Shown here in pieces: positions 1 through 64,000 of a stretch of 64,000 bases of DNA; position 1 is the stretch's first letter; each line of letters begins with the position of its first letter. A model generated the notes under the pieces. That model saw only the letters and a list, made by a program, of their open reading frames with translations, was not told the DNA's origin and did not search any database. This DNA is from a bacterium (lineage in GTDB: Bacteria > UBA8248). The DNA is taken from positions 224,001 to 288,000 of the forward strand of contig CBDBZY010000051.1 in the NCBI GenBank assembly GCA_965213685.1. Reading direction: 5' to 3'. Made by a program: the position numbers and the translations under genes.

Positions 1-455
1 ATAACCCCCATTAGCAAGTGATGGGTGGTGGAATGGACTTGCCACCCACCATAGCTAAGAATGTGCAAATCATGACTGCTCTATCAGCGCTGTTGATTGG
101 TGTGTTGCCCTCCCACTCCTGTGTTATTTTTGAGTCACTTCCTCCCTCTCCTCTGAATCCTCCCTCTCCTCCTCCTCTCCCTCTCCCATCCCTATTGTTA
201 TTGGGTCACTTCCTAAGCTCCCTCTCTCGCTCTCTCACCAGTGTTGTTAGGACACTTCCTAAGCTTCCATCCCCCCCTCCCTCTCTCCACTTCTATACTT
301 CTGTGTGTTTAATCACTTCCGAATCTTCCTCTCCCTGTCTCCCTCTCTCACTCCTGTGTTATTACAGAGCCACTCCCTAATTCTCCTCATTCCCCCCCCC
401 CCCCTCTCTCTCTCTCCCTCCCTCCCTTTCTCTTCCTCCCTCCCCACTCCCGCAG

Positions 456-826
456 GCCTACAGTCGAGAACAAAAGCCCTCTAAGCAGATGCGGGAGGAG
501 CTAATGTCAAAGACTGGACTGGACATGAGAGTGATTCAAGTGTGGTTCCAGAACCGCCGCTCCAAGGAGAAGAGAGATGCCATGGCCATGCGTGATGACA
601 CTTCAGCCATTCACACAGCCAGCTCAGCCTCCGTCATGTCTCCCATGGTGAGCAGCTCACCCGTATCCATGGCCATCATCACCTCCTCTGATAACCCCCT
701 CTCCTCGACACTATCAGGTATGGTAGCACTGTTTTTACCCCTACTTGTGGCATGAATTTCTCCCTCCCTCTCCCCCCTCCCCCTCCTCTCTCTGCAGACC
801 CTAGCTCTTCTCTGGCTACTCAGTGA
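456..826 (+). CDS. LIM-class homeobox transcription factor (Lhx1/5- or Lhx3/4-like), last exons; 5' part lies outside the window
   Basis: Exon 456-717 follows a polypyrimidine/cag acceptor and encodes [40 protein letters not shown] (homeodomain helices 2-3 with LIM-HD signature). Probable final exon 798-826 ends in TGA. Confidence 0.85.
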
Positions 827-1197: not shown

Positions 1198-2056
1198 ATG
1201 AAACACCTGCTGCTACTGCTGACGGCCGCCTTGCTAGCCGTTGGACGGTGCGCGTCTGACACGGTGGGTGACAAATGACGGGAGTAGCCGTCGACTGCAT
1301 GCCCATCATAGCGCCGCTTTACAGTGCATCAACACCAATATAGATACGTAGCCCCGAGAGGTTAGGTATCTAAGACATCATGTATTTACGGATATGTCCA
1401 CCGGTGATTCCTTGCAGTTCGCGTGTACCAACTGCACTACGGAGTACACTCAAGTGATATACCGCCTGCATTTCCCCCATATCAACTGCTACGGGGGCGA
1501 AGGGAGCAGCATTGCACGCCCAGATCCCATCAATGTCAGCCTGCCTGTCCAAGAAAACAATACATACACACTTCAGATGGTTATGGAGGCAGCTACCGAC
1601 CAGGACGAATCCTACCAGTTCAGTGCACAGTACCAGGGTGAGGTGACCGGGTACCTGCTGGAAGCAGTGAATGGAACTGAGGAGAATGGTGACTGTGTGT
1701 GGATCCTCTACTACCAGGCACCGGGGGAAGCAGAGCCAACCCGCCGTGATGAATTTCAGAGTGCTGTGTCCTTTTTTGAGGTCGAATCAGAGAGCACCAT
1801 TGTGCTGTGTTTCCAGAGCACAGTCCCTCCTGAGCCACCGACAACTTCATCCCCCCCCAGCCCATCTCCCAGCCCATCACCCAGTGCTGCTCCACCCGAA
1901 CTGCCCAGCTCCCAGCCTGCCCCAGTGACCTCCCCAACCCCCCCACCTTCCACTGATGCACCAACCATGGGACCGGGGAGTGGCTCTTCACCCTCTAGAC
2001 CAGCTGTTTTTGTTTTCTTGTTTACCATACTTCTCTGTTTGTGTATAATTTTTTAA
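1198..2056 (+). CDS. Secreted, predicted GPI-anchored protein with one transcobalamin C-terminal (beta/DUF4430-like) domain, copy 1 (~234 aa)
   Basis: Exon 1198-1263 is a signal peptide (MKHLLLLLTAALLAVGRCASDT), followed by a phase-0 GT-AG intron and exon 1418-2056. Motif TLQMVMEAA..YQFSAQY..TGYLLEAVNG..CVWILYY..VSFFEVESESTIVLCF, then a Pro/Ser/Thr stalk and a hydrophobic C-terminus with no cytosolic tail. Confidence 0.75.
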
Positions 2057-2421
2057 GTAGATGGATCATAATAATAATAATTGTAAGATATTGTGTTTTG
2101 GTCTTGTCTATTACATTTGGAAGTCAAATTCTCTTGGGATAAGGTGTTAATGGAAGAGCATACCTCTGAAATGCCTGCACCCACCCTGTTCACTCCCACG
2201 TTCTTGGAATGCCGTATATACATACTGTTAGGAGGTGTGCTATTGCACTATTGTATCAGTGAAAGGCGCAGTTGAGTTGCCAGCAGCAGTGCAAGGTACG
2301 AAGAGCGAAGGCCCTGGCTGGAGCATACGTACATTTTATTTGCATTATAATATGCGAGCATTAAACCTTTTTATTTTCTCTCCCCGGACTTTTATCAGTG
2401 CGTGGTATAGGGCGGCTGAAG

Positions 2422-4091
2422 ATGACACCTCCGTTCCACCTTCTTACGCTAGTGCTTCTCACAGGACTCGCTGTCGCAGGCGTGAGTTATGCACGCACCG
2501 TAATAGTATGTACAGGTCCAGCTAACACAACTACCTACATCTAGGGGGTATAGGCATGGACTCACTTGGCAATACATTGATTGAGGCAAAGAACATAAAA
2601 TGTAGTAAACTACATGGATATTAGCCTCGCGAGACGTATGCTGCAAGGACATGAGCTCACTGTGCAATACGTTGATCGAGAAAAATGTTTCTACATGAGT
2701 ATGACATCGTCACGGCTCTGGTGCTGTAAACGTAAGCGCTTGTGTATTACTACAAGCCACTCCCTTTACATTTTGCGCACTTGGTTCATTGCACAAGAAT
2801 GCGCGGAGGAGTTAGGGCGGATAGCTGAAGTGTGCACATGTTTGTCGCGTGGAATACGCTGGGTGGCAGCACCTGTTCAAACTGCTCTGGGTGGGTAGGG
2901 GGCACTAAACAAACAATGGGATGAACACAGTTCATAACATGTACGGAGGCACTGCATGTCGTGATGATGTATCTATATTTTTCTCCCTCTTCCCAGAATG
3001 CTACAAATGACACAACCGAATGCCCGACAGATCCTCCTCCAACTGATCCTCCTACATACTATGGCCCGTACAATGTGATGTATGACATAGAGTATCCAGA
3101 CCAGGACTGCTTTGGATTGATCAATCGCACTATGTCAGTTAACAACGAGACAACCTGGATGCTGGTATACGACGTGCCTAACCCATTTACAACGACAGTT
3201 GAGTTGCAGGCGGATATCACTCATGGTGTGACATATGTTGTACAGGATGTGCTGGAGACAGCAGTAGATGAGAACTCTGATGTGTTCTTCAGTGTCACGT
3301 ACACTGGCTCAGTCACTGGCTACTTTGTCAGAGCCATAAAAGGCCTGAGGAGCAACAATAACTGCAAGTGGTTCCTGTACTACAAAGCACCCAACGTACC
3401 TTACCCCTTCCTGAGAAGCACTGGAGTGTCACTGTTTACAGCCGAGCCCAACTCTACAGTTGTGATGCGCTACCAGTACCCACCAGTCCACCATGTGTTC
3501 TATGAGCTCTACTTCCCTCACGTGAACTGCACTGACCCTGACCTCCCCAGGCCTGCTCCACTCAACATCAGCCTCTACTTTGGTGCACCCAACTACACAT
3601 ACACAGTTCAGAAGGTGATGGAGTTGGCTGTCGACATGGACCGCTCGTATGAGTTTACTGTAACATACTATGGGAAGTCACGAGGGTACGAGATTGACGC
3701 AATAAATGGTACAGACAACCATGAGAAGTGTGTCTGGCACTTCTTCTACCTTCCTGCTCGGATTCCAAGAGAACAAGCTACCATGCAGAGCAACATCTCC
3801 TACTTCAATGTGGAGGCCAACTCAACCATAATAATGAGCTTCCAGGAGCGGCCCACCATTGAGCCTCCTACGGAACCTCCAACTGACCCACCAGAACCTT
3901 CACCCACACCTGAACCCACTGGTGCACCGGTGCCCCCAATGGAGACTCCCACCGCTACGCCGACGCCCGATACCCCCGGCACCACGTTACCTCCTATGCC
4001 ATCGAGATCAGGAGCACCGAAACTCGCAGTGGGAATTCTCGCGCATGTGCTTTCTCTTGCAATATGTCTTGCCTATATGTATGTATTGTAG
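2422..4091 (+). CDS. Secreted, predicted GPI-anchored protein with two tandem transcobalamin-beta/DUF4430-like domains, copy 2 (~384 aa)
   Basis: Exon 2422-2481 is a signal peptide (MTPPFHLLTLVLLTGLAVAG|gtgagt), then a phase-0 intron and exon 2997-4091. Two domains: VVQDVLETAVD..TGYFVRAIKG..CKWFLYY and TVQKVMELAVD..RGYEIDAING..CVWHFFY. PT-rich stalk and hydrophobic end. Confidence 0.78.
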
Positions 4092-4356
4092 AACGTAGCG
4101 AACGACTGAAATTCATGCATACCATATTATAGATGATGTAATGTTTTGCACAATTACTTTTTGCTGAAAAAGCCAGGGTTGGACACCATTGTATTCTCAA
4201 TACGAATCGCGAGAGTATAGAGGTGAGTTACTACTGTTATTTTAGCAAGAGAAGCGCAATTGCTACGGCGGTCGATTCGGCAATACACCCACACAGGGAT
4301 AGCCCTTTGGAAGCCATTCAGCTGCACTGCGAGCGCCCGTTGACATTCGTGCTGAT

Positions 4357-5107
4357 ATGTACCTCAGATCACTTCTCTTCTCGCTGTTGGTGGCGCTCTT
4401 CGCCATTTCTCACGGAGAGGTAAACAGTGCAACTCATCCTCTTCTTTCCTACCCCACCCATCTCTCCCTCCCACCTGGCTCACCCACAGTAGACTACTTC
4501 TTACTTATTTCACACAGCCTTTCTGCCTAAAGAATATCCCTTTCCCCTTCCTCTCCTCTCCCCCTCCTCCCTCCTCCTCCTTCCTCCCTCATCTCTCCTC
4601 TCCTGCCAGGCGGAGCCCCAGGTCAACTACAAACTAGAGTTCTATGTGAACTGCTCTGCTCTCAACGGAACAGTGGAAGAGCTGGGCCCTGTCACTGTTG
4701 AGCTGGAGGACACTCCCTCCACAGTGCAGGATGTCATGGAGCTGGCAGCAGACGATAGCGCTGAGTACCATTTCACCGCCACCTACTACAACCGAAGCAC
4801 TGGCTATGTGATCAATGCTGTCAGTGGGGTGTGGGAGGCTGAGGACTGTCAGTGGTACCTCTGCTACCAGGCCCCTGACGAGCATGCTCCACAGTTCCAG
4901 AGAGGTGCTCGCATCTCAAAATTCATGGTTAAAGCCAACTCTACTGTTGTGCTGAAGTACCAGCCCCCTCCCGCCATCCCACCCTCCCCCACCCCCTCCC
5001 CCACCCCCATGGCAACTGATGATGATGACTCAGCCCCGCCCATTGTTGCAGCCAATCTCCTGGCAGTTCTCCTCTGCCTCTTCATCGGAATGGCCGTACC
5101 ACTCTGA
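4357..5107 (+). CDS. Secreted, predicted GPI-anchored protein with one transcobalamin-beta/DUF4430-like domain, copy 3 (~186 aa)
   Basis: Exon 4357-4419 is a signal peptide (MYLRSLLFSLLVALFAISHGE|gtaaac), then a phase-0 intron and exon 4610-5107: QVNYKL..TVQDVMELAADD..TGYVINAVSG..CQWYLCY..ISKFMVKANSTVVLKY, Pro stalk, hydrophobic tail. Confidence 0.78.
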
Positions 5108-5321: not shown

Positions 5322-8496
<3,175 letters not shown>

Positions 8497-8748: not shown

Positions 8749-10038
8749 CTAGCACTGGGTGCCCTGGGGGTCCACAGTGATGCGTGTGAAGTATGCATTG
8801 CTGGGGAGAACCTGCTGCACGTCATAGCCCTCCTCCACCTCACTCTCCTCCGTGAGGCCGAGCTTGATCACCCCTGAGATGCTGTGCAGGTACACAGGCA
8901 TGGGCTCTTCCTTCCCCCCCACCGTTTCCAGGCCTGTCTCCTTGTCACCTTCCTGGCTCTTCTTGCTCTTCTTCCTAATGTCAGCATACTTGAGGGGGCA
9001 CTTGGTGGATTGCAGTATGGTGCTGTAGCGGCAGCCCCTGCTCTGGCATGGAGTCAGCCTACTCCCAGAGTCAGGAGAGCTAGAGATAAAGAAGGTGTTC
9101 CAGTCAAGGATGAGAGCGTATCGGTACACCCCGAGATAGCGGTATATGCAGTCATTGTACCCCAGGACCTTAGAGAAGTCTCGTATATCCGTCTCGTTAA
9201 GCCACTGAGTCCAAATGTTTACACTGAGATATTTGTCCATGGATGCCTCATATATGAAGGGATTCACAAACCCTCCTCTGTTGAGGAAGGAGTTCTCAGA
9301 TATCATGTGGACGTGTTCCACACCAATCATCTTGAGGTGATGGACCCACTCATAAAACAAGTGGTCCTGGGAGGGAGGAGGGTTGCTTCTCGATAGAGTG
9401 GCAAGGCAGGCCACGATGGATACTGTATCGTTCCTGGCTGGCTGCGAGGGAGGGTTAAACCTCTTTTCAGACTCAGCTGTGTAGATGATTTTATCGTCTG
9501 GGGAGGTCTTGAAGTAGAGGAAGGCTCTCTGGCTGCAGCTGTCGACGGGGAGGTCGTAACAGTCCACCAGCGCGGGGGAGTGGGTTAGCGCCCCTTCACG
9601 GAGGACCCTCACAGCCAGCGAGGAGGTGATGTGGGTGCCCACCTGGCACTCCACCAACAGGTTGTCCTTCACCAGCTCATTCGCCACCTCCACCAGAAAC
9701 ACAGAGGCGTTGCTGTGCCCGTTCCGAGGGCGGGGATCGAAGTGCACGGCGCGGACAATCAACAGCTTGGTGGCCACGGCGTACTCGGTGTGCCAGTTGT
9801 AGTTGGAGCCGTGCTGGGGAAGAACGTAGCCTCCCGCGACGAGCTCGCGTGTTAGGCTGGACGGCTGGCTGCTACGGTAAATGGCAGGGACTCCCATAGG
9901 CAGGGCGCTCATGGACACGCTCCCTCTCGAAAAGGCAAAGTACATCAGTAGAAAGACTAGGGTGATGAGAGGCGGCGCCACCCACACGCACCAACTCCTC
10001 TTCGTTCTCTGCTCCGTGCCTTCGTGAGACTCGCCCAT
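8749..10038 (-). CDS. Intronless type II membrane glycosyltransferase, GT92/DUF23 family-like (429 aa)
   Basis: Short cytosolic N-terminus and one TM helix (WVAPPLITLVFLLMYFAF). GT92-like core: IVACL..EWVHHLKMIGVEHVHM..YNDCIYRYLGVYRYALILDWNTFF. Confidence 0.75.
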   Translation of the reverse strand: MGESHEGTEQRTKRSWCVWVAPPLITLVFLLMYFAFSRGSVSMSALPMGVPAIYRSSQPSSLTRELVAGGYVLPQHGSNYNWHTEYAVATKLLIVRAVHFDPRPRNGHSNASVFLVEVANELVKDNLLVECQVGTHITSSLAVRVLREGALTHSPALVDCYDLPVDSCSQRAFLYFKTSPDDKIIYTAESEKRFNPPSQPARNDTVSIVACLATLSRSNPPPSQDHLFYEWVHHLKMIGVEHVHMISENSFLNRGGFVNPFIYEASMDKYLSVNIWTQWLNETDIRDFSKVLGYNDCIYRYLGVYRYALILDWNTFFISSSPDSGSRLTPCQSRGCRYSTILQSTKCPLKYADIRKKSKKSQEGDKETGLETVGGKEEPMPVYLHSISGVIKLGLTEESEVEEGYDVQQVLPSNAYFTRITVDPQGTQC

Positions 10039-10194
10039 CGCTCTGCACTCTCAAAACGTGCGCGGTTACACCTAGTACCTGTCCACGCTCTGCGCTACTA
10101 TACTACATGCGCACGCATCACACTAGCACTCCTAATGAATACTTTTCCGCCATTCACGTGCACAATTATCAATAGCCATACACAGTACAGCAAT

Positions 10195-13580
<3,386 letters not shown>

Positions 13581-13997: not shown

Positions 13998-20949
<6,952 letters not shown>

Positions 20950-29063: not shown

Positions 29064-29179
29064 AAGCGAAAATTTGTTATTGCGCTGTCCCGCTTTGGAT
29101 GCGGCCTACACGTATAAGCACCCGCTTGAAGGGCTTCCTACATAAGCTCAGAGCTCGCCTGCACTGAAGTGGCCGGGAT

Positions 29180-32100
29180 ATGTCCCTGTGTGAGGAAAAC
29201 CAAGACAAGATCATCCGAGCGTGCGCCAAGGGAAATTTTAGGTACGCAGTTGAGCTCAGTAAGAATCTTAGGAGCGACGAATTCTCGGCAGTTGTTAGCA
29301 AGCGTGGATGGACTCCACTGCACTATGCGTGCAGTTTTTGCCGTGTGAAGTATGCAAGTACTTTGAATAGCCTCGGCTACGATCCGCGGCAGAAGGACTC
29401 CACGGGAGTCACGCCCCTGCACCTGGCCTGTCAGTATGGCCCACTGGAGATGGTTCAACTTCTGATTAACAATCTGACTGCGTTGGATTACAACATAGAG
29501 ACTGAGTGTGTGGATTCAGACATGAATACGCCCGTCCACAGCGCCTGTCAGTACGGCCAGCTGGACACGATGAAGACGCTATTAAGGTATGTCAACGAAG
29601 CGGTCGTAATGCAAAAAAATCGCGACGGCGACACGCCGCTTGGTATCGCCTTCCAACAAGGAGAGGTAGGCATCGTCATGCTATTTGCCAGAATTATACC
29701 CAGCGCGAAGATAAAACAGCACATCACCAGGGAGGAAGGCACAGTACTCTTTCATAAAGCTTGCGAGTATGGCAGAGTAGAAGCTGTGGACTTTCTCCTG
29801 AAAAATGGCTTCAGGTTGCATCAGGTAATGGAGATGTACAAACGTTCTGCAGTGCATGTTGCTAGCACGTATGGACAAATGGAGGTGCTAGCAGTATTGG
29901 TTCAGTATGGATGTCAGCCCAGCACACTTACAGATTACGAGGGTTCTACTCCTCTCCATGTTGCATGTTGGCATGGACATTTGAATGTGGTACAGAGACT
30001 AATATGTAGACATTCTTGCAATCCCCTGGAGGAAAACTCCAAAGGGGAAACCCCTTTCTCATTGGCCTGCATTAGTCATCACTATAGTATTGCAAGGTAT
30101 ATTCAGCATTGGTTGGCTTCCCAAGGTGACGTACCAGAAGACATAGCAGCAGCTTCATGGCCTAAGGTGGACGAGTTGCCCTCTGTATCTGAGCCATATA
30201 GATCAGAGGATGACATTGTGTTACTTACGTTGCAGGCTGTTGAGCGCACTAGTGTCCCACTAAGTTACCAACAGCAACTTCACATGGCATGCCAGAGAGG
30301 TGTTCTGGATGTGGTGAAACTACTGAGTGAGTCAAACATTGACCCACTCCTGCCAATTACTGAAGAAGGCCATTCTGCACTTCATGTGGCTTGCGAATAT
30401 GGCCAAAGTGACATTGCTAGGTACCTGATTGACACACATGGGTGTGACCCTACGTCAAAAACCAAGAATGGGTCCACAGCATTCCACTGTGCTAATAATC
30501 CAGCACCAAATGCTGCACATAACCCTCTTGATATTGGAGTGCTCTTTGAGAAATACTTCAAAGAGCACCATGGCAACACAGGAACATATCACACCGGGAC
30601 TGATGATGAACCTGACATTCACGAGAAGAGAAGAGAAAACATTCAGCACTTGAAATACTTTCAAACATTGGACTTGGATTCCAAGAATGATGAGGGGAAG
30701 ACTGCATTGCATTATGCATGCCGTCATGGTTTAAAGGACAATTTGAGACAGCTGCTTTCCATGGGTTGCAATCCATTCATAAGAGACAAGGAGTGTAACA
30801 CTGCTATGCATCTGGCTTGCTTATCGGGTAATGCTGAAACAATATCCACTCTCTCTAGTTACAGCAGTAAATTATGTAACCCAAGGTGTAAGAACAGCTA
30901 CCTTGACACACCTCTGCACTTTGCTGCATCTACTGGAAACATGGAACTGGCAACTTCATCACTGAGACTCTTTCAAAAGAATGTTTGGTACAGACCAATA
31001 CCTCAAAATTGTGTGTGGGACACACCACTGCATGAAGCCTGCCGATCTGGTTCAGTTGACTTTGTTCGCTATCTTGTAGAAGAGATGAAGTACAAAGTCA
31101 GAGTCCGAAATAAATCAGGTGAGACTCCTCTTCACAGTGCTTGCTGCAAATCTGGCAATGTGCAAGTAGTTAAGTATCTTGTGACAAAGATGGGAAACCC
31201 ACTAGTAAAAAACAAAGTGGGAGATTCACCACTGCACAACGCCTGTGCATTTGGGCAGTATGAAATTGTGAAGTTTTTGATTAGTCACTTGGCTGAAGCC
31301 AAACTTAAAAAGCTCCACAACAATCAAGGTTTCAATCCTCTGCACACTGCATGCAGCTTTGGACAAGATATCATCGTGAAGTATCTCCTACAGTGCTCCA
31401 TATGGGATCCAAACAAACCTGACTGTGCTGGTAGAACTCCTCTCCACTGTATTTTCCAAGGGCTAGAGCTGGAATATTGCTCACATGCAGCTGCCCAAGA
31501 GACATTAGAACAGCTATTGACCAAAAAGAGCCTGAATCTGTCTCTATTGGACCACAATGGACAGACTCCCTTTGCCATGTGTAACAGCACAAAGTTAGAA
31601 AAAATCTTGCTTCACAATATGAAAAACTCTGCCGAGATGTATGTAAAGTATTGTGGCCAACTTCAACCACAGTCTCTCCCAGCATCATCTCTGGTTGTGT
31701 TTGTGTTAGGAAACAGAGGTGTGGGCAAGAGCTCTCTGATTGCATCTCTTCAGAAAGAGAAGAAGCTCTCTCTTTCTCAAAAAGTCACAGTTGTGTCACC
31801 ATGCACAGCAGGAATAGTCCCAAGCAAATTTTTCAGTAAAGCATATGGTTCGGTGATGTTTTATGACTTTGCTGGCCACTACGAATATTATGCTGGACAC
31901 TCTGCCATTTTGCAAAATTGTGCAACTTCTAAGATCCCCCCACTTTTCCTGGTAGTGGTGAACCTGGAGGAAAGCAGTGATGACATCAGAAAGAGGCTAG
32001 GGTACTGGCTGTACTTCCTCACTAGCCAGTATCACATGCAGGAAGCCCAGTCACATGTCGTCATCATTGGGAGCCATTCCGATAAGATATCTGCACAAGA

Positions 32101-34547
32101 TGCAACAAGCAAAAAAGAGTGTATACACTACATAATACAGCATCATGGTAAACAGTTCCAGTATCAGGGATGTGTTCTGCTGGATTGTCGCAGGCCAGAC
32201 AAAATGGACTGCCTCCGAAGCAAACTCAGTGTCATAGACAGGGATAGAATCGGGAGAATTGATCCCATGGCACAATATTTCCTCTCATTCCTGGAGAGCA
32301 ATCTGCAGCATTCTGAGGTGGCACTGACTGTAACAGAGCTTGAAACAAGAGTCAAAGAAAGCAGCTGGTTCAAGGTGCCAGAGAAATTTGAGAATGACCC
32401 AAGTATAACACCGTTTGAGCCGCACCATGACACTCTCGAGGTGTGCCGTCATTTGAATGAACATGGACATATTCTTCTGCTGGAACAGGAGGAGAAATCT
32501 TGTAGTTGGGTAGTTTTTCATACCCAGAAGCTGTTGTCTGATATCATGGGGTCAATATTTGTTCCCACAGACCCCCAGTCTTCTCCTTCCTGCACTGGAG
32601 TTGTGACATTCTCAGCCATCAAGGCGCATATTGCAATTGTGGACACGGAAGTGATAGTGAAATTTCTCTGCCACTTTCAATTCTGTCGTGAGCTATCTGA
32701 CTGTCAAGTGTTAGACCTCTTGGTATTGGAAAGCAGGCACGAGGCTATTTCAACAATCCCAGGTGAAAGGTATTTCTTTTTCCCTGGTCTCATCAACACA
32801 GTTACGCCAGACACTCTATGGGAGGAGGATGAACAATATACATTCTACAGTGGTTGGATGCTGGAGTGCATTGAACTAGAGTATATGCAGTTTTTAACAT
32901 CAAGATTTCTGCAAGTACTACAGCTTCGCCTCATGTTTGGGTTTGCTTTCCCATCCACTACAGCTGTGTCTCCTCTCCCAGACCCAGCCCTCAGGAGGAA
33001 GTGTGTGGTGTGGAAGAATGGCATTCAGTGGAAAGAACACGGGACACAAGTGCTAGTGGAAGTAACTGAACAGAACACGAAAGTCGTCGTACTCTTGAGA
33101 TCGTATCAGGATTCAAAGTCAAAGAACATCACACTACGCTCTAGCATCATCAGGGAGGTACTGGAGGCCAAGAATGAGTTCTGTTGCCACACTTGCATCT
33201 CACAGTCATTTCTTCATCCACAGGACATAAAGCAGTACCCACTCCAACAGAATGTCCGAAAGTTCAATATCCACGATGTAGCTCAGGCAATTGTTCATCC
33301 TCACAACAAAGCAAAATATGTTCTGGACAACATGGGGAGCTGTGAAATCCAGCTAAACGAACTGCTGTACTTCGAGCCTTATGCTGAACTGTGCCGCATG
33401 ATCCTTTGCCAACTACTAAATGATGCAGCTTCAGACGTGGAGATTCCACACCACATTCTGGAAGGCATAGCAGCTCACTGCTCAGCATCAGAGAGAGGAG
33501 AACTCTTTGCAGATATTCTGGGCTATCACTCTGCCACCAAGGATGAGATAGCCACAGTCTTTAGACACTGGAAGAACAGAGGTAGCTGCACATTTGAGAG
33601 CCTCAAGGCTAGCATTGACCAATACACTGTGTTCCGAGGAAGAGCTGGGCGACAGCTTCTGCTGGTAAATATGGAAAGAGTTTGCTACTAGGAGCTAATC
33701 CATAGCTATAGTGTGCCAAAAGATCCTAATTTTTCTTGTGCATTCACCTGTGCTGTCAGAATAAGGCTCTGCATGGGAAGTCATATTGAAAGTTTGTATC
33801 CCCATAATACCCTTACCACCACACCATAGGCCAGTAATGTGATCCCTATCAGCAAGTGCAACCCACCCAGTGCCATATCAGTTACTAAAATCACTACACA
33901 TCATCAGCCAAGTACATGTAGTAGTGCCGTGGTTGCATGATAGCCATCTTGTATGTGCCATGTTTTACTCTATTACCTGCTAGGATGAGACGGAGCATCA
34001 CCTCTCCCGGTTCCCTGGTGCTAGTTCAGTTTGCCTGAGGTGCCAGGAGCCAGAAATTCCTCTCAACAATGAACAGATCGATGACACCCACTTAGGTAAA
34101 TATTAGGCCATACTCCACACAAGCTAAAGCACAAGCTGACGTATGTCTTATAGGCCAATATATTATATATACATAGAGCAGATGCATGGTAGTGCCCATA
34201 TCCTGCTGTGTGTCATTGGATCGCCTTTGTTTCATGCAGAAGAAGACAATCTATTTGAAGTCCTCTCTGAACTAGTTGAGGTCGTACAATGGAAGAACTT
34301 CAGCCTGGCCCTCGGTCTCCTGCCCTCAACAGTGAACAAGATTGCTGCTAAGGAAAGGGGAGATGTTGACAACTGTCTGCGAGAGGCATTGCTGGCCTGG
34401 CTTTGTTGGCAAGACAACACCAGAGCAACCACTTGGAGGGAGTTGTATCAAGCATTGCGTCAGTGTGGCTGTGTCTCAGTAGCCAAACAGGTGGCAAGAA
34501 ACCACCCTCAGCACCCTGCAGCCATCCCTAACTCTAGCCCCCCATAA
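29180..34547 (+). CDS. Ankyrin-repeat ROCO protein (ANK-Roc-COR-death domain; DAPK1-like without kinase), ~1630 aa
   Basis: Exon 29180-33664 has many TPLH ankyrin repeats, then Roc motifs G1 GNRGVGKS, TAGI, G3 DFAGH, G4 GSHSD and a COR region. In-frame splices lead to 33984-34095 and 34240-34547, encoding a death domain (WKNFSLALGL..CLREALLAWL..TWRELYQALR). Confidence 0.88.

Positions 34548-41257: not shown

Positions 41258-52466
<11,209 letters not shown>

Positions 52467-53029: not shown

Positions 53030-59178
<6,149 letters not shown>

Positions 59179-60034: not shown

Positions 60035-64000
<3,966 letters not shown>

What the first reader, a model, noticed from the sequence alone, without database searches (positions are those of the whole stretch)
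1198..5107. Tandem cluster of GPI-anchored transcobalamin-beta/DUF4430-domain proteins: candidate cell-surface vitamin B12 capture system
Seen in sequence: three adjacent same-strand genes share one layout: signal-peptide exon, phase-0 intron, then a single exon with one, two or one ~110-aa domains, a Pro/Ser/Thr stalk and a hydrophobic C-terminus with no cytosolic tail. All four domains share V-x-Y..TVQxVMExA..F-x-x-x-Y..GY-x-I/V-x-A-I/V-x-G..C-x-W-x-L/F-x-Y..I/V-S-x-F-x-V-x-x-N-S-T-I/V-V. Established: this pattern resembles the C-terminal beta domain of haptocorrin/transcobalamin/intrinsic factor (Pfam DUF4430-like), recalled roughly as haptocorrin ISVNYSV..VFLSVMEKA..GPYITCIQG..YWELL..GSYVVRNGENL. 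The vertebrate carriers are soluble two-domain (alpha+beta) proteins, and soluble beta-only B12 binders are known in zebrafish. Inference: here the alpha domain is absent and the beta domains are displayed on a mucin-like stalk at the cell surface. They could be membrane-tethered corrinoid receptors with diversified specificity, plausibly harvesting B12 from seawater or bacterial symbionts in a filter feeder.
Basis: partly seen in the sequence, partly recalled or inferred. Interest (0 to 1): 0.85.

Follow-up and report, generated by a model that had tools for sequence, protein, structure and literature searches.

The report
Tethered B12-carrier-like sponge surface proteins
Three neighbouring animal (probably sponge) genes encode cell-surface glycoproteins built only from the small B12-gripping domain of our own vitamin B12 carrier proteins, so they may be how this animal catches B12, but binding has not been tested.

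Summary
At 1198-5107 (+) lie three tandem two-exon genes. Each has a signal-peptide exon, a phase-0 GT..AG intron, and one exon with 1, 2 or 1 paralogous ~120-aa domains, a Pro/Ser/Thr stalk and a hydrophobic end with no tail.

The DNA is animal, probably sponge, mis-binned into a bacterial genome.

The transcobalamin-beta/DUF4430 reading is supported, but only transitively:
- The window's own domains fail Pfam DUF4430.
- Their profile finds 169 relatives, and 34 of the best 150 hit DUF4430.
- A close relative passes Pfam's cut-off.
- A 52-sequence family profile hits the beta domain of human intrinsic factor in PDB at E 8e-6.
- A profile of the 18 nearest sequences matches mollusc DUF4430 domains at 97-99% hhalign probability.

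No alpha domain is present. GPI anchoring is inferred from a rule-based check only. Corrinoid binding is inferred from homology only, at odds of about one in two.

No RNA data were found.

Verdict: a new tethered, beta-only variant of a known carrier domain. Interest is moderate.

The parts
1198..1263 (+). Gene 1 exon 1: start codon and 22-residue signal peptide
   Evidence: ATG, a Leu-rich hydrophobic core, then donor GTGGGT directly after codon 22
1264..1417 (+). Gene 1 intron, 154 nt, phase 0, GT..CAG
   Evidence: The exon-1 frame stops at 1276-1278. The exon-2 frame opens at 1352. The two frames differ
1418..2056 (+). Gene 1 exon 2: one beta-type domain (1445-1816), Pro/Ser/Thr stalk (1817-2005), hydrophobic end (2006-2053), stop (2054-2056)
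   Evidence: Translation P0001. Domain by alignment A1 and tblastn. Stalk is 73% P+S+T and the tail scores KD 3.3
2422..2481 (+). Gene 2 exon 1: start codon and 20-residue signal peptide
   Evidence: ATG, hydrophobic core..AVAG then donor GTGAGT
2482..2996 (+). Gene 2 intron, 515 nt, phase 0, GT..polypyrimidine..CAG
   Evidence: The 99-aa ORF inside it has no Pfam hit
2997..4091 (+). Gene 2 exon 2: short Pro/Thr linker, domain 2a (3069-3479), domain 2b (3489-3851), stalk (3849-4022), hydrophobic end (4023-4088), stop
   Evidence: Translation P0002. Ten orthologues of 55-86% identity (P0005-P0014) keep the same layout
4357..4419 (+). Gene 3 exon 1: start codon and 21-residue signal peptide
   Evidence: ATG, hydrophobic core..SHGE then donor GTAAAC
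4420..4609 (+). Gene 3 intron, 190 nt, phase 0, pyrimidine-rich, ends CAG
4610..5107 (+). Gene 3 exon 2: one beta-type domain (4619-4966), short stalk with an acidic DDDD patch (4958-5041), hydrophobic end (5042-5104), stop
   Evidence: Translation P0003. Domain by A1. Tail

Best explanation
Three old paralogous genes of an animal, probably a demosponge, encode secreted and heavily glycosylated proteins. Their only globular parts are one, two and one copies of a divergent transcobalamin-beta-type (DUF4430 superfamily) domain. Each copy is stapled by a family-specific disulfide.

Shown: the gene structure, the four homologous domains, their membership of a large family of mostly unnamed sequences whose two credibly named members are molluscs, that family's link to DUF4430 and to the beta domain of intrinsic factor and haptocorrin, the absence of an alpha domain, and the stalk plus tail layout kept in orthologues.

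Inferred: the signal peptide takes the protein into the ER. The Pro/Ser/Thr stalk is O-glycosylated and holds the domain away from the membrane. The C-terminal hydrophobic peptide is exchanged for a GPI anchor at a small-residue site about 24-29 residues from the end.

Inferred by analogy with the isolated human TC beta domain and the zebrafish beta-only carriers Tcnba and Tcnbb: each domain binds a corrinoid (vitamin B12 or a related cobamide). Binding would use its beta3'-beta4' hairpin (x-x-x-G-Y-x) and the following C-x-W strand. The cell surface would thus capture B12 from food bacteria, symbionts or seawater, and the complex would then be taken in by endocytosis or handed to an unknown membrane partner.

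My odds: homology and fold type about 0.9, GPI tethering about 0.7, corrinoid binding about 0.5. The confidence given for this explanation as a whole (0.5) is set by its weakest step, corrinoid binding.
For: Gene models and paralogy.

Animal origin: homeodomain, ribosomal S5, Surp and SET exons. Clathrin exon 84% identical to Ephydatia muelleri, the best named hit. Low-GC, ORF-poor contigs. The family is absent from 50 of 50 other genomes of the bin's bacterial phylum.

Family:
- The profile of the four domains finds 169 cluster representatives at E<=1e-3 among 1.84 billion.
- 34 of the best 150 hit PF14478, best E 9.8e-14.
- P0016 (E 2e-43 to the profile; hhalign 99.7%, 38% identity over 110 columns) passes Pfam's cut-off, 25.0 against 23.8 bits.
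- The profile of 52 family members hits intrinsic factor 2pmv_A residues 313-371 at E 8.1e-6 and 3kq4_A at 8.3e-6, with haptocorrin next at 0.45 in the same register.
- The Mya arenaria relative P0159 hits the intrinsic factor beta domain (3kq4_A residues 282-393; 288-399 in 2pmv_A) at 9e-8. P0121 hits haptocorrin 332-433 at 2.8e-6.
- The near-clade profile (18 sequences, none Pfam-positive) aligns with 6 domain segments of P0159, P0121 and P0019 at 97.2%, E 3.9e-11. It aligns with 10 segments at 99.3%, E 3.4e-20. The reversed control gives 0.2%.

Conservation:
- Trp is invariant in 97 of 97 domains, the hairpin Gly in 89 of 97, Tyr/Phe after it in 94 of 97, and the Cys in 91 of 97.
- Each window domain sits in its own well-supported clade with orthologues (quick tree).
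- The layout is kept in 10 of 10 gene-2 orthologues.

Tail: hydrophobic, uncharged, with small omega-candidate triplets in all 21 proteins I picked. It is present in 24 of the 48 representatives that carry an extension of at least 25 residues.

Precedent:
- The isolated human TC beta domain holds Cbl through purification and was crystallised with it (PMC5599065, sections and passages read).
- Cbl binds the beta domain first, and some organisms have only the beta domain (PMC11107200 passages).
- Sponge papers propose that symbionts supply cobalamin.
Against: - No binding data of any kind exist.
- The window's own domains fail Pfam DUF4430, both as proteins and in the six-frame search (0 matches, 4 candidates scored).
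- Profiles of the four domains and of the gene-2 orthologues find no solved B12 carrier. P0002 alone and P0016 alone find none either.
- The nearest-clade profile reaches intrinsic factor only at E 0.66. The window's clade is therefore among the most divergent members.
- At the positions aligned to the bulky residues that grip the nucleotide side in haptocorrin, IF and TC (R357, W359, Y362; PMC4350170), only domain 2a keeps an aromatic (Phe). The others have Leu, Glu or Val, and Thr or Arg. That register sits next to a gap.
- The family is large and diversified. That is more usual for recognition or adhesion proteins than for a vitamin carrier.
- A bacterial TC-beta-like protein has been proposed to bind heme (preprint 10.1101/864751).
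- About half of the relatives with a complete last domain (49 of 97) end within 25 residues of it, so tethering is a subfamily trait.
- GPI signal: no trained predictor was run.
- The co-binned bacterium lacks CbiC and CobS, so that bacterium adds no support for B12 supply by symbionts.
Confidence: 0.5

Rival explanations
1. Same fold and same surface display, but the ligand is another tetrapyrrole or small molecule, for instance heme. The proteins would then be scavengers or sensors for that compound and not for B12.
For: DUF4430 is a broad family with few tested members. The Lactobacillus sakei TC-beta-like protein Lsa1839 sits in an ECF-type operon that the authors tie to heme uptake, and they dock heme into it (preprint 10.1101/864751, passages read). 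The hairpin residues aligned to the vertebrate nucleotide-gripping positions are mostly not bulky or aromatic in the window's domains.
Against: Every eukaryotic member with a tested ligand binds cobalamin: TC, IF, HC, Tcnba and Tcnbb. The heme claim for Lsa1839 rests on docking and on operon genetics, not on binding by the isolated protein.
Confidence: 0.15
2. A lineage-expanded family of mucin-stalked surface glycoproteins that uses the beta-grasp-like domain as a protein or glycan recognition or adhesion module, for example in contact with microbes or other cells. No small-molecule ligand would be involved.
For: The family is large: 169 clusters at 50% identity. Old paralogues are kept side by side. 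Paralogue-specific surface residues occur. Glycosylation is heavy, with 4, 11 and 4 N-x-S/T sequons. Mucin stalk plus GPI is a common layout for adhesion and recognition molecules (general knowledge). The window's clade lies far from canonical DUF4430.
Against: The two best-conserved motifs of the family (G-Y hairpin and C-x-W strand) align with the two stretches that I recall as the cobalamin-contact stretches of intrinsic factor (alignment; the contact annotation is recalled, not from a call). No adhesion-type domain is detected.
Confidence: 0.25
3. The proteins are not GPI-anchored. The hydrophobic end is either a plain C-terminal membrane anchor, or it is removed or absent in the mature protein, which is then secreted like the mollusc relatives.
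For: Only a rule-based check was made. The relatives P0159 and P0121 end without a hydrophobic tail. 49 of 97 representatives end soon after the domain.
Against: A hydrophobic stretch of 16-22 residues that ends the protein, with no charged residue behind it and small residues 24-29 positions from the end, is the classical GPI signal. It is kept in 10 of 10 gene-2 orthologues although the sequence around it drifts.
Confidence: 0.2
4. Artefact: chance ORFs, or bacterial genes of the genome bin in which the window is filed.
For: The window is filed under a prokaryote genome. Public gene calls for the relatives were made with prokaryote-style ORF finding. For example, P0004 starts inside the intron.
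Against: Paralogy at E 1e-14 to 1e-29. Orthologues at 55-86% identity with conserved domains and drifting stalks. A coding-type codon-position GC pattern. Animal neighbours. 0 of 50 related bacterial genomes hold the family.
Confidence: 0.02

Closest known systems
Zebrafish Tcnba / Tcnbb (beta-domain-only cobalamin carriers; Benoit et al. 2018, J Biol Chem)
   Same: They consist of the TC-type beta (DUF4430) domain without an alpha domain and enter the secretory pathway. They are reported to bind cobalamin with high affinity (passages of PMC10778862, PMC4350170 and PMC9730659).
   Different: As I recall them, the fish proteins are soluble single-domain carriers and are described as conserved in ray-finned fishes. 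The primary paper is not held, so I could not check its phylogeny or its supplements. The window's proteins carry a mucin-like stalk and a GPI-type tail, one has two domains, they carry a family-specific disulfide, and they come from a non-vertebrate.
Beta domain of human intrinsic factor, haptocorrin and transcobalamin (PDB 2pmv, 3kq4, 4kki; TC-beta 5NO0 series)
   Same: The family profile matches at E 8e-6 over helix alpha1 to strand beta5. It shares the helix motif V-M/L-E-x-A, the hairpin glycine and the invariant Trp. The isolated TC beta domain binds Cbl.
   Different: The vertebrate proteins are soluble alpha+beta clamps. Here there is no alpha domain. Identity is low, and the window's own sequences and narrow profiles do not reach the solved chains. 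The bulky specificity residues are mostly replaced.
Invertebrate 'DUF4430 domain-containing' or uncharacterized proteins (Mya arenaria XP_052766009.1, Batillaria attramentaria KAK7478927.1)
   Same: They belong to the same family. They have tandem beta-only domains behind a signal peptide. hhalign gives 97% to the window's clade.
   Different: P0159 is secreted, with no hydrophobic tail. These proteins are closer to canonical DUF4430, at 36-52 bits. They have no known function and no paper in my searches.
Bacterial and archaeal DUF4430 proteins, e.g. Lactobacillus sakei Lsa1839 next to an ECF transporter
   Same: Extracellular TC-beta-like domain that stands alone as a separate protein. PF14478 rings in Lactococcus lactis and Methanosarcina acetivorans among the control genomes.
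   Different: They are prokaryotic, encoded in operons, and pair with a separate alpha-like protein. The proposed ligand is heme or cobalamin.
Folate receptor alpha (works-like analogy only; recalled, no call)
   Same: A GPI-anchored, high-affinity vitamin receptor that delivers its ligand by endocytosis.
   Different: Unrelated fold and a different ligand.
Algal cobalamin acquisition protein CBA1
   Same: A membrane-associated eukaryotic protein needed for B12 uptake from the sea (abstract of PMC10828217).
   Different: I made no sequence comparison with CBA1. That it is an unrelated family is recalled, not tested here.

Membership tests
Pfam PF14478 DUF4430 (transcobalamin-like C-terminal domain) | Own sequence scores above the curated cut-off (23.8 bits) | tested here: not met
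   P0001, P0002 and P0003 give no DUF4430 row even at E<=10. The six-frame search of the assembly gives 0 matches from 4 scored candidates. 0 of 18 near-clade sequences hit.
Pfam PF14478 DUF4430 (transcobalamin-like C-terminal domain) | Homology to accepted members, by transitive or profile-profile evidence | tested here: met
   34 of 150 relatives hit PF14478, best 9.8e-14. P0016 scores 25.0 bits and 99.7% hhalign to the window profile. The near clade against P0159, P0121 and P0019 gives 97.2%, E 3.9e-11, with a reversed control at 0.2%.
Pfam PF14478 DUF4430 (transcobalamin-like C-terminal domain) | Beta1-beta2 / alpha1 / beta-hairpin fold of the TC beta domain | not testable with these tools
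Eukaryotic cobalamin carriers TC / IF / HC | N-terminal alpha6/alpha6 barrel (PF01122 Cobalamin_bind) joined to the beta domain | tested here: not met
   The proteins are fully accounted for by signal peptide, beta-type domains, stalk and tail. No PF01122 row appears in Pfam scans. There are 0 matches in the assembly, but no control genome rang.
Eukaryotic cobalamin carriers TC / IF / HC | Sequence-profile match to a solved beta domain | tested here: inconclusive
   Met with the 52-sequence family profile: IF at E 8.1e-6, HC at 0.45. Not met with the 4-domain profile, the gene-2 orthologue profile or single sequences. The 18-sequence near-clade profile puts IF on top at E 0.66.
Eukaryotic cobalamin carriers TC / IF / HC | Bulky residues on the hairpin that grip the nucleotide side (HC R357, W359, Y362) | tested here: inconclusive
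   The aligned residues are E-x-T-G-Y-L, S-x-T-G-Y-F, K-x-R-G-Y-E and R-x-T-G-Y-V. Only domain 2a has an aromatic at the Y362 position. A Tyr one place earlier is nearly invariant. The register lies beside a gap.
Beta-only cobalamin carriers (Tcnb type) | Beta domain(s) only, in the secretory pathway | tested here: met
Beta-only cobalamin carriers (Tcnb type) | High-affinity cobalamin binding | not testable with these tools
   This needs recombinant protein. Complex prediction offers no corrinoid ligand.
GPI-anchored proteins | N-terminal signal peptide plus a C-terminal hydrophobic peptide with no cytosolic residues | tested here: met
   Exon-1 peptides of 20-22 residues have hydrophobic cores. 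The last 16-22 residues are hydrophobic and uncharged and end the protein.
GPI-anchored proteins | Omega site: small residues at omega and omega+2, then a short spacer before the hydrophobic stretch | tested here: inconclusive
   My own rule finds candidates 24-29 residues from the end in all three proteins: G-S-G / S-G-S, S-G-A and D-S-A. No trained predictor was available.
GPI-anchored proteins | Release by PI-PLC, or a lipid-linked C-terminus | not testable with these tools
   This is a bench test.

The most novel reading that the evidence does not exclude
Early-branching animals catch vitamin B12 and its many bacterial analogues directly at the cell surface, using a battery of GPI-tethered, beta-only transcobalamin-like receptors. 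The old paralogues, including the two domains of gene 2, would differ at the hairpin that reads the lower ligand, so each is tuned to a different cobamide made by food bacteria or symbionts. The soluble alpha+beta carriers of vertebrates would be a later elaboration of this stand-alone beta module.
Probability: 0.25. Interest if true: 0.8.

Novelty: new variant of a known kind. Interest (0 to 1): 0.55.

Why it matters
Animals cannot make B12. How invertebrates take it up, above all sponges that live with B12-producing microbes, is not addressed in the passages I read. Sponge papers only propose that symbionts supply it.

A surface-tethered, beta-only relative of our own B12 carriers gives a concrete candidate that can be cloned, and a simple test. 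If it binds corrinoids, three things follow:
- The origin of the TC/IF/HC binding module moves back to non-bilaterians.
- It adds a new receptor layout, in which the carrier and the receptor are one molecule.
- It offers small, stable, disulfide-stapled B12 binders with possibly different cobamide preferences.

If it does not bind, it shows that the DUF4430 fold has been re-used for something else in a large family of marine animal proteins.

Separately, the window shows that a 'prokaryote' reference genome can be 61% host DNA and still pass marker-gene contamination checks.

Tried and rejected
No model, no Foldseek or VIA search and no look at a pocket was possible.

Expression. The look-up of sequencing runs (rna) listed no RNA holder. 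The four listed runs are DNA-type contigs of one study that carry the stretch unspliced and identical, and they may be the window's own source. Nothing follows for expression or splicing.

Related DNA.
- The search for related loci with A4 found no confirmed relative in metagenome contigs or genome contigs.
- With A3 it returned an error, because no stretch was conserved enough.

Closed or empty tools.
- The search for homologous proteins with A3 and lengths 'longer' found nothing among proteins of 453-2000 residues. This is weak evidence against fused forms.

Kre9_KNH (PF10342). It hits domain 2b at 22.5 bits, below the 24.6 cut-off. At E<=0.01 only P0004, the window's own gene-2 product, shows it among the 150 relatives. 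P0020 reaches E 0.011. I rejected it as a chance or low-level match.

Other negatives.
- P0142 (Pseudomonas ZirU) and the long silk-like or TSP3-like hits are low-complexity matches.
- Minus-strand and intron ORFs have no Pfam hit.
- There is no Rfam family and no tRNA in the window.
- There is no DNA-level repeat between the genes.
- CbiC and CobS are absent from the assembly, so that bacterium adds no support for B12 supply by symbionts.

Papers.
- Not held: PMC6231144 (Benoit 2018), PMC1876373, PMC1450181 and PMC2077253. The contact residues of TC and IF could therefore not be read. What I say on the IF contact stretches is recalled.
- Searches for a tethered or sponge TC-like binder found none: DUF4430, 8 papers; 20 papers, 15 listed, all on other meanings of 'sponge'; badly posed, uninformative; 4 papers, none relevant.
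- Supplements were closed. Those of PMC4350170 and of Benoit 2018 may list invertebrate beta-only sequences.

Tree. The tree is the quick tree, because the careful search did not finish. I dropped P0004, which is near-identical to the window, and all domain pieces that cover fewer than 95 profile positions or have E above 1e-8. That left 97 rows.

Full report
**What is in the sequence**

On the + strand between 1198 and 5107 lie three genes of one design.

| Gene | Exon 1 | Signal peptide | Intron | Exon 2 |
|---|---|---|---|---|
| 1 | 1198-1263 | 22 residues | 154 nt, GTGGGT..CAG | 1418-2056 |
| 2 | 2422-2481 | 20 residues | 515 nt, GTGAGT..CAG | 2997-4091 |
| 3 | 4357-4419 | 21 residues | 190 nt, GTAAAC..CAG | 4610-5107 |

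- Each gene opens with an ATG and a short exon encoding a typical signal peptide, which ends exactly at a GT donor.
- Each intron closes with a pyrimidine run and CAG.
- In every gene the two exons lie in different frames and the exon-1 frame runs into a stop within the intron. Only splicing, in phase 0, joins signal peptide and domain.
- The exon-2 frames hold a single stop, the terminal one, against 4-18 in the other frames. Codon-position GC in the domains (about 0.5 / 0.37 / 0.62) is that of coding DNA.
- GC falls to 0.42-0.45 between the genes.
- Nothing on the opposite strand or in the introns has a Pfam match. No RNA family lies here.

**The proteins**

The exon-2 products are P0001 (212 aa), P0002 (364 aa) and P0003 (165 aa). 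They hold one, two and one copies of a domain of about 115-135 residues.

- The copies are 32-43% identical pairwise, with tblastn E 1e-14 to 1e-29.
- Twenty-three columns are invariant among the four copies. They include a Cys pair, a helix-like Q-x-V-x-E-x-A-x-D, F-x-x-x-Y, G-Y, C-x-W, S-x-F and S-T.
- After the last domain comes a stretch of 28-63 residues that is 61-73% Pro, Ser and Thr. Then 16-22 hydrophobic residues follow, on which the protein ends.
- There are 4, 11 and 4 N-x-S/T sequons.
- A simple rule of my own finds small-residue triplets 24-29 residues from the end in all three proteins. This is the classical outline of a GPI attachment signal, but it is not a trained prediction.

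Its motif was written a little too strictly in three places, which are listed under the observation check.

**Where the DNA comes from**

The window is filed as contig C51 of a 'prokaryote' genome of 7.97 Mb. It is nonetheless animal DNA.

- The contigs fall into two groups. About 3.1 Mb has 61-69% GC and is almost wholly covered by long ORFs (median 0.97). The other 4.90 Mb has 33-54% GC and a long-ORF cover of 0.09-0.37; this group holds the six longest contigs, C51 among them.
- Genomes of the same bacterial genus measure 2.9-4.6 Mb.
- The window carries spliced animal genes: a homeodomain exon, ribosomal protein S5, a Surp module, a SET domain, an ankyrin-Roc protein and clathrin heavy chain exons.
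- The best named match of the clathrin exon is the demosponge Ephydatia muelleri (84%). Trichoplax (83%) and the sponge Halichondria panicea (82%) follow, and unnamed sequences reach 88-89%. 'Probably a demosponge' is as far as this goes.
- The family is absent from 50 of 50 other genomes of the bin's phylum. In the assembly it occurs only at this locus, even with a broad 97-domain HMM at E<=10.

**Relatives**

Gene 2 has ten orthologue clusters of 55-86% identity, plus one 99% copy, in public metagenome and genome data.

- All ten keep two domains, a drifting Pro/Ser/Thr stalk and the hydrophobic end. The domains are highly conserved, with 62% mean column identity.
- A profile of the four domains, run against 1.84 billion cluster representatives, finds 169 proteins at E<=1e-3, 51 at <=1e-10 and 6 at <=1e-30.
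- Many of these are ORF fragments that start at an internal Met. That is what prokaryote-style gene calling gives on animal DNA.
- In a quick maximum-likelihood tree of 97 domain pieces, each of the four window domains sits in its own well-supported clade with orthologues from other organisms. Domain 2a has 12 rows (support 99), domain 2b 12 rows (97), domain 1 four rows (98), and domain 3 sits with P0020 (97).
- The paralogues are thus old and each is kept. No DNA-level similarity remains between them.
- Of 30 representatives looked up, three carry names: a snail protein called 'DUF4430 domain-containing protein', an uncharacterized clam protein, and a Pseudomonas ZirU protein that is a low-complexity false hit.

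**Is it a transcobalamin-beta / DUF4430 domain?**

Direct tests fail:
- Pfam gives no DUF4430 row for the three proteins, even at E<=10.
- The six-frame family search of the assembly gives none.
- None of the 18 nearest sequences hits the family.
- PDB searches find no B12 carrier with P0002, the four-domain profile, the gene-2 orthologue profile or the close relative P0016.

Indirect tests agree with each other:
1. 34 of the best 150 relatives hit PF14478, best 9.8e-14, and 9 of the 52 in alignment A3 do so.
2. P0016 is the third-best cluster (E 2e-43). It aligns with the window profile at 99.7% hhalign probability and 38% identity over 110 columns, and it passes Pfam's own cut-off (25.0 against 23.8 bits).
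3. The 52-sequence family profile hits human intrinsic factor in PDB at E 8.1e-6 (2pmv_A residues 313-371). Haptocorrin comes next at E 0.45 in the same register.
4. The 18-sequence near-clade profile still ranks intrinsic factor first of 177,635 sequences in that register, but at E 0.66.
5. The clam protein P0159 (Pfam 52 bits) hits the intrinsic factor beta domain (3kq4_A residues 282-393; 288-399 in 2pmv_A) at 9e-8. P0121 (50.5 bits) hits haptocorrin 332-433 at 2.8e-6.
6. The near-clade profile aligns with six domain pieces of P0159, P0121 and P0019 at 97.2%, E 3.9e-11, over 84 columns. It aligns with ten pieces at 99.3%, E 3.4e-20. The reversed template control gives 0.2%.

One caveat applies. 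The Pfam-positive proteins were themselves found with the window's profile, so they were not chosen independently.

I conclude that the domains belong to the DUF4430 / TC-beta superfamily and form one of its most divergent branches.

**What is the same as in the vertebrate carriers, and what is not**

- The alignment to intrinsic factor and haptocorrin covers strand beta2, helix alpha1, the beta3'-beta4' hairpin and strand beta5 (element names from PMC11107200).
- The family's best-kept residues lie there. The hairpin Gly is present in 89 of 97 domains, Tyr/Phe after it in 94 of 97, and the Trp in 97 of 97. That Trp aligns with the Trp of Y-W-Q-F-L in intrinsic factor and Y-W-E-L-L in haptocorrin.
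- From memory of database annotation, not from a call, these two stretches are the cobalamin-contact stretches of intrinsic factor.
- Haptocorrin's three bulky hairpin residues are R357, W359 and Y362. Intrinsic factor keeps the Trp and TC keeps the Tyr, and these residues stabilise the nucleotide side and set analogue tolerance (PMC4350170 discussion).
- The aligned residues in the window, and the fixed positions among orthologues, are as follows:

| Domain | Aligned residues | Fixed among orthologues |
|---|---|---|
| 1 | E-V-T-G-Y-L | Leu in 4 of 4 |
| 2a | S-V-T-G-Y-F | Phe in 12 of 12 |
| 2b | K-S-R-G-Y-E | R-G-Y-E in 11 of 12 |
| 3 | R-S-T-G-Y-V | not counted; only one orthologue (P0020, K-T-T-G-Y-T) |

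- Residues that are fixed within a clade but differ between clades are what tuned specificity would look like. Divergence to other ligands would look the same. The register also sits next to a two-residue gap.
- A Cys pair (91 of 97 domains) has no counterpart in the aligned intrinsic factor sequence. I read it as a family-specific disulfide.
- No alpha domain is present.

**How it most likely works**

Shown:
- Secretory-pathway proteins made only of beta-type domains, on a mucin-like stalk, with a GPI-type end.

Inferred from precedent:
- The beta domain is the part of the vertebrate carriers that binds cobalamin first, and it has the most favourable interface with it (PMC11107200).
- The isolated human TC beta domain keeps cobalamin through purification and was crystallised with cobalamin, cobinamide and an antivitamin (PMC5599065).

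On this basis I propose that the window's proteins hold corrinoids at the outer face of the cell and deliver them by endocytosis or to an unknown partner. This is much as the GPI-anchored folate receptor does for folate, an analogy that I recall and that comes from no call. Sponge studies propose that symbionts supply cobalamin to the host, so a host-side receptor is expected.

My odds are about 0.9 for the homology, 0.7 for GPI tethering and 0.5 for corrinoid binding.

**Rivals**

- The same display with another ligand. Heme has been proposed for a bacterial TC-beta-like protein.
- A recognition or adhesion family without a small ligand. The size of the family, the divergence from canonical members and the loss of most bulky hairpin residues favour this.
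- A secreted or plainly membrane-anchored form instead of GPI. 49 of 97 representatives with a complete last domain end within 25 residues of it. Of the 48 with longer extensions, 24 have a hydrophobic tail and 18 also a Pro/Ser/Thr stalk. The clam and P0121 relatives are tail-less.
- An artefact or a bacterial origin. This is excluded.

**Novelty**

- Beta-only cobalamin carriers are known from fish, and invertebrate relatives are auto-annotated as DUF4430 or uncharacterized proteins.
- In the held library I found no paper on a tethered TC-like binder or on such proteins in sponges (one search was uninformative). The library lacks many journal papers, and supplements were closed.
- New here are the tethered layout, the two-domain member, the conserved three-gene cluster of old paralogues, and the early-branching host.
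- I rate it a new variant of a known kind, of moderate interest. It is easy to test and would be informative whichever way the binding assay falls.

**Limits**

- No structure model could be made.
- No transcript evidence was found.
- No related DNA from other species was available to compare exon 1 or synteny.
- No trained signal-peptide or GPI predictor was available.

Noticed in passing
whole assembly G000 (window = C51:224001-288000): The 'prokaryote species genome' that holds the window is a chimera. 4.90 of its 7.97 Mb lie in 22 contigs of 33-54% GC. The 12 of these that are at least 20 kb long have a long-ORF cover of 0.09-0.37, against 0.97 in the 61-69% GC contigs. Same-genus genomes are 2.9-4.6 Mb. 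Yet the bin is rated 94% complete and 3.7% contaminated. I showed animal origin only for C51.
   Followed up: partly
window 29168-33691 (+): A single uninterrupted 1507-aa ORF encodes many ankyrin repeats followed by a Roc GTPase-like domain (25.1 bits, just under the cut-off of 27). It stands intron-free amid intron-rich genes.
   Followed up: partly
window 8749-10050 (-): A 433-aa ORF has a borderline match to glycosyltransferase family 92 (22.8 against 23 bits). It lies next to a ribosomal protein S5 C-terminal exon at about 7.8-8.4 kb.
   Followed up: no
window, e.g. 6119-6253, 6890-7134, 10616-10955, 15378-15570, 17262-17660, 19099-19278, 44349-44799, 57585-57865, 61030-61378: Non-coding stretches and introns are packed with purine- or pyrimidine-rich and (GT)n/(CA)n microsatellites. 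TRF returns 33 rows at score 150 or more, and some overlapping rows describe the same array. They create many long spurious Pro- or Gly/Glu-rich ORFs on both strands.
   Followed up: no
window 381-755 (+): The last exon of a homeobox gene (homeodomain E 3e-14) ends only about 440 bp upstream of gene 1's start codon, so the cluster's first promoter must be very short.
   Followed up: no
window domains 1445-1816, 3069-3479, 3489-3851, 4619-4966: A Cys pair is kept in all four domains and in 91 of 97 family domains. One Cys is in the first strand region, the other two residues before the invariant Trp. It has no counterpart in the aligned intrinsic factor sequence. Domains 1 and 2b also carry an N-G-T sequon right after the hairpin, which most family members share.
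   Followed up: partly
assembly G000, bacterial part: Neither CbiC (PF02570) nor CobS (PF02654) is found in the assembly. At 94% completeness, the co-binned bacterium therefore does not look like a cobalamin producer.
   Followed up: partly
relative P0019 (Batillaria attramentaria KAK7478927.1): The 836-aa snail gene model is four near-identical units, and each begins with its own signal-peptide-like stretch. It looks like four tandem genes merged into one model.
   Followed up: no
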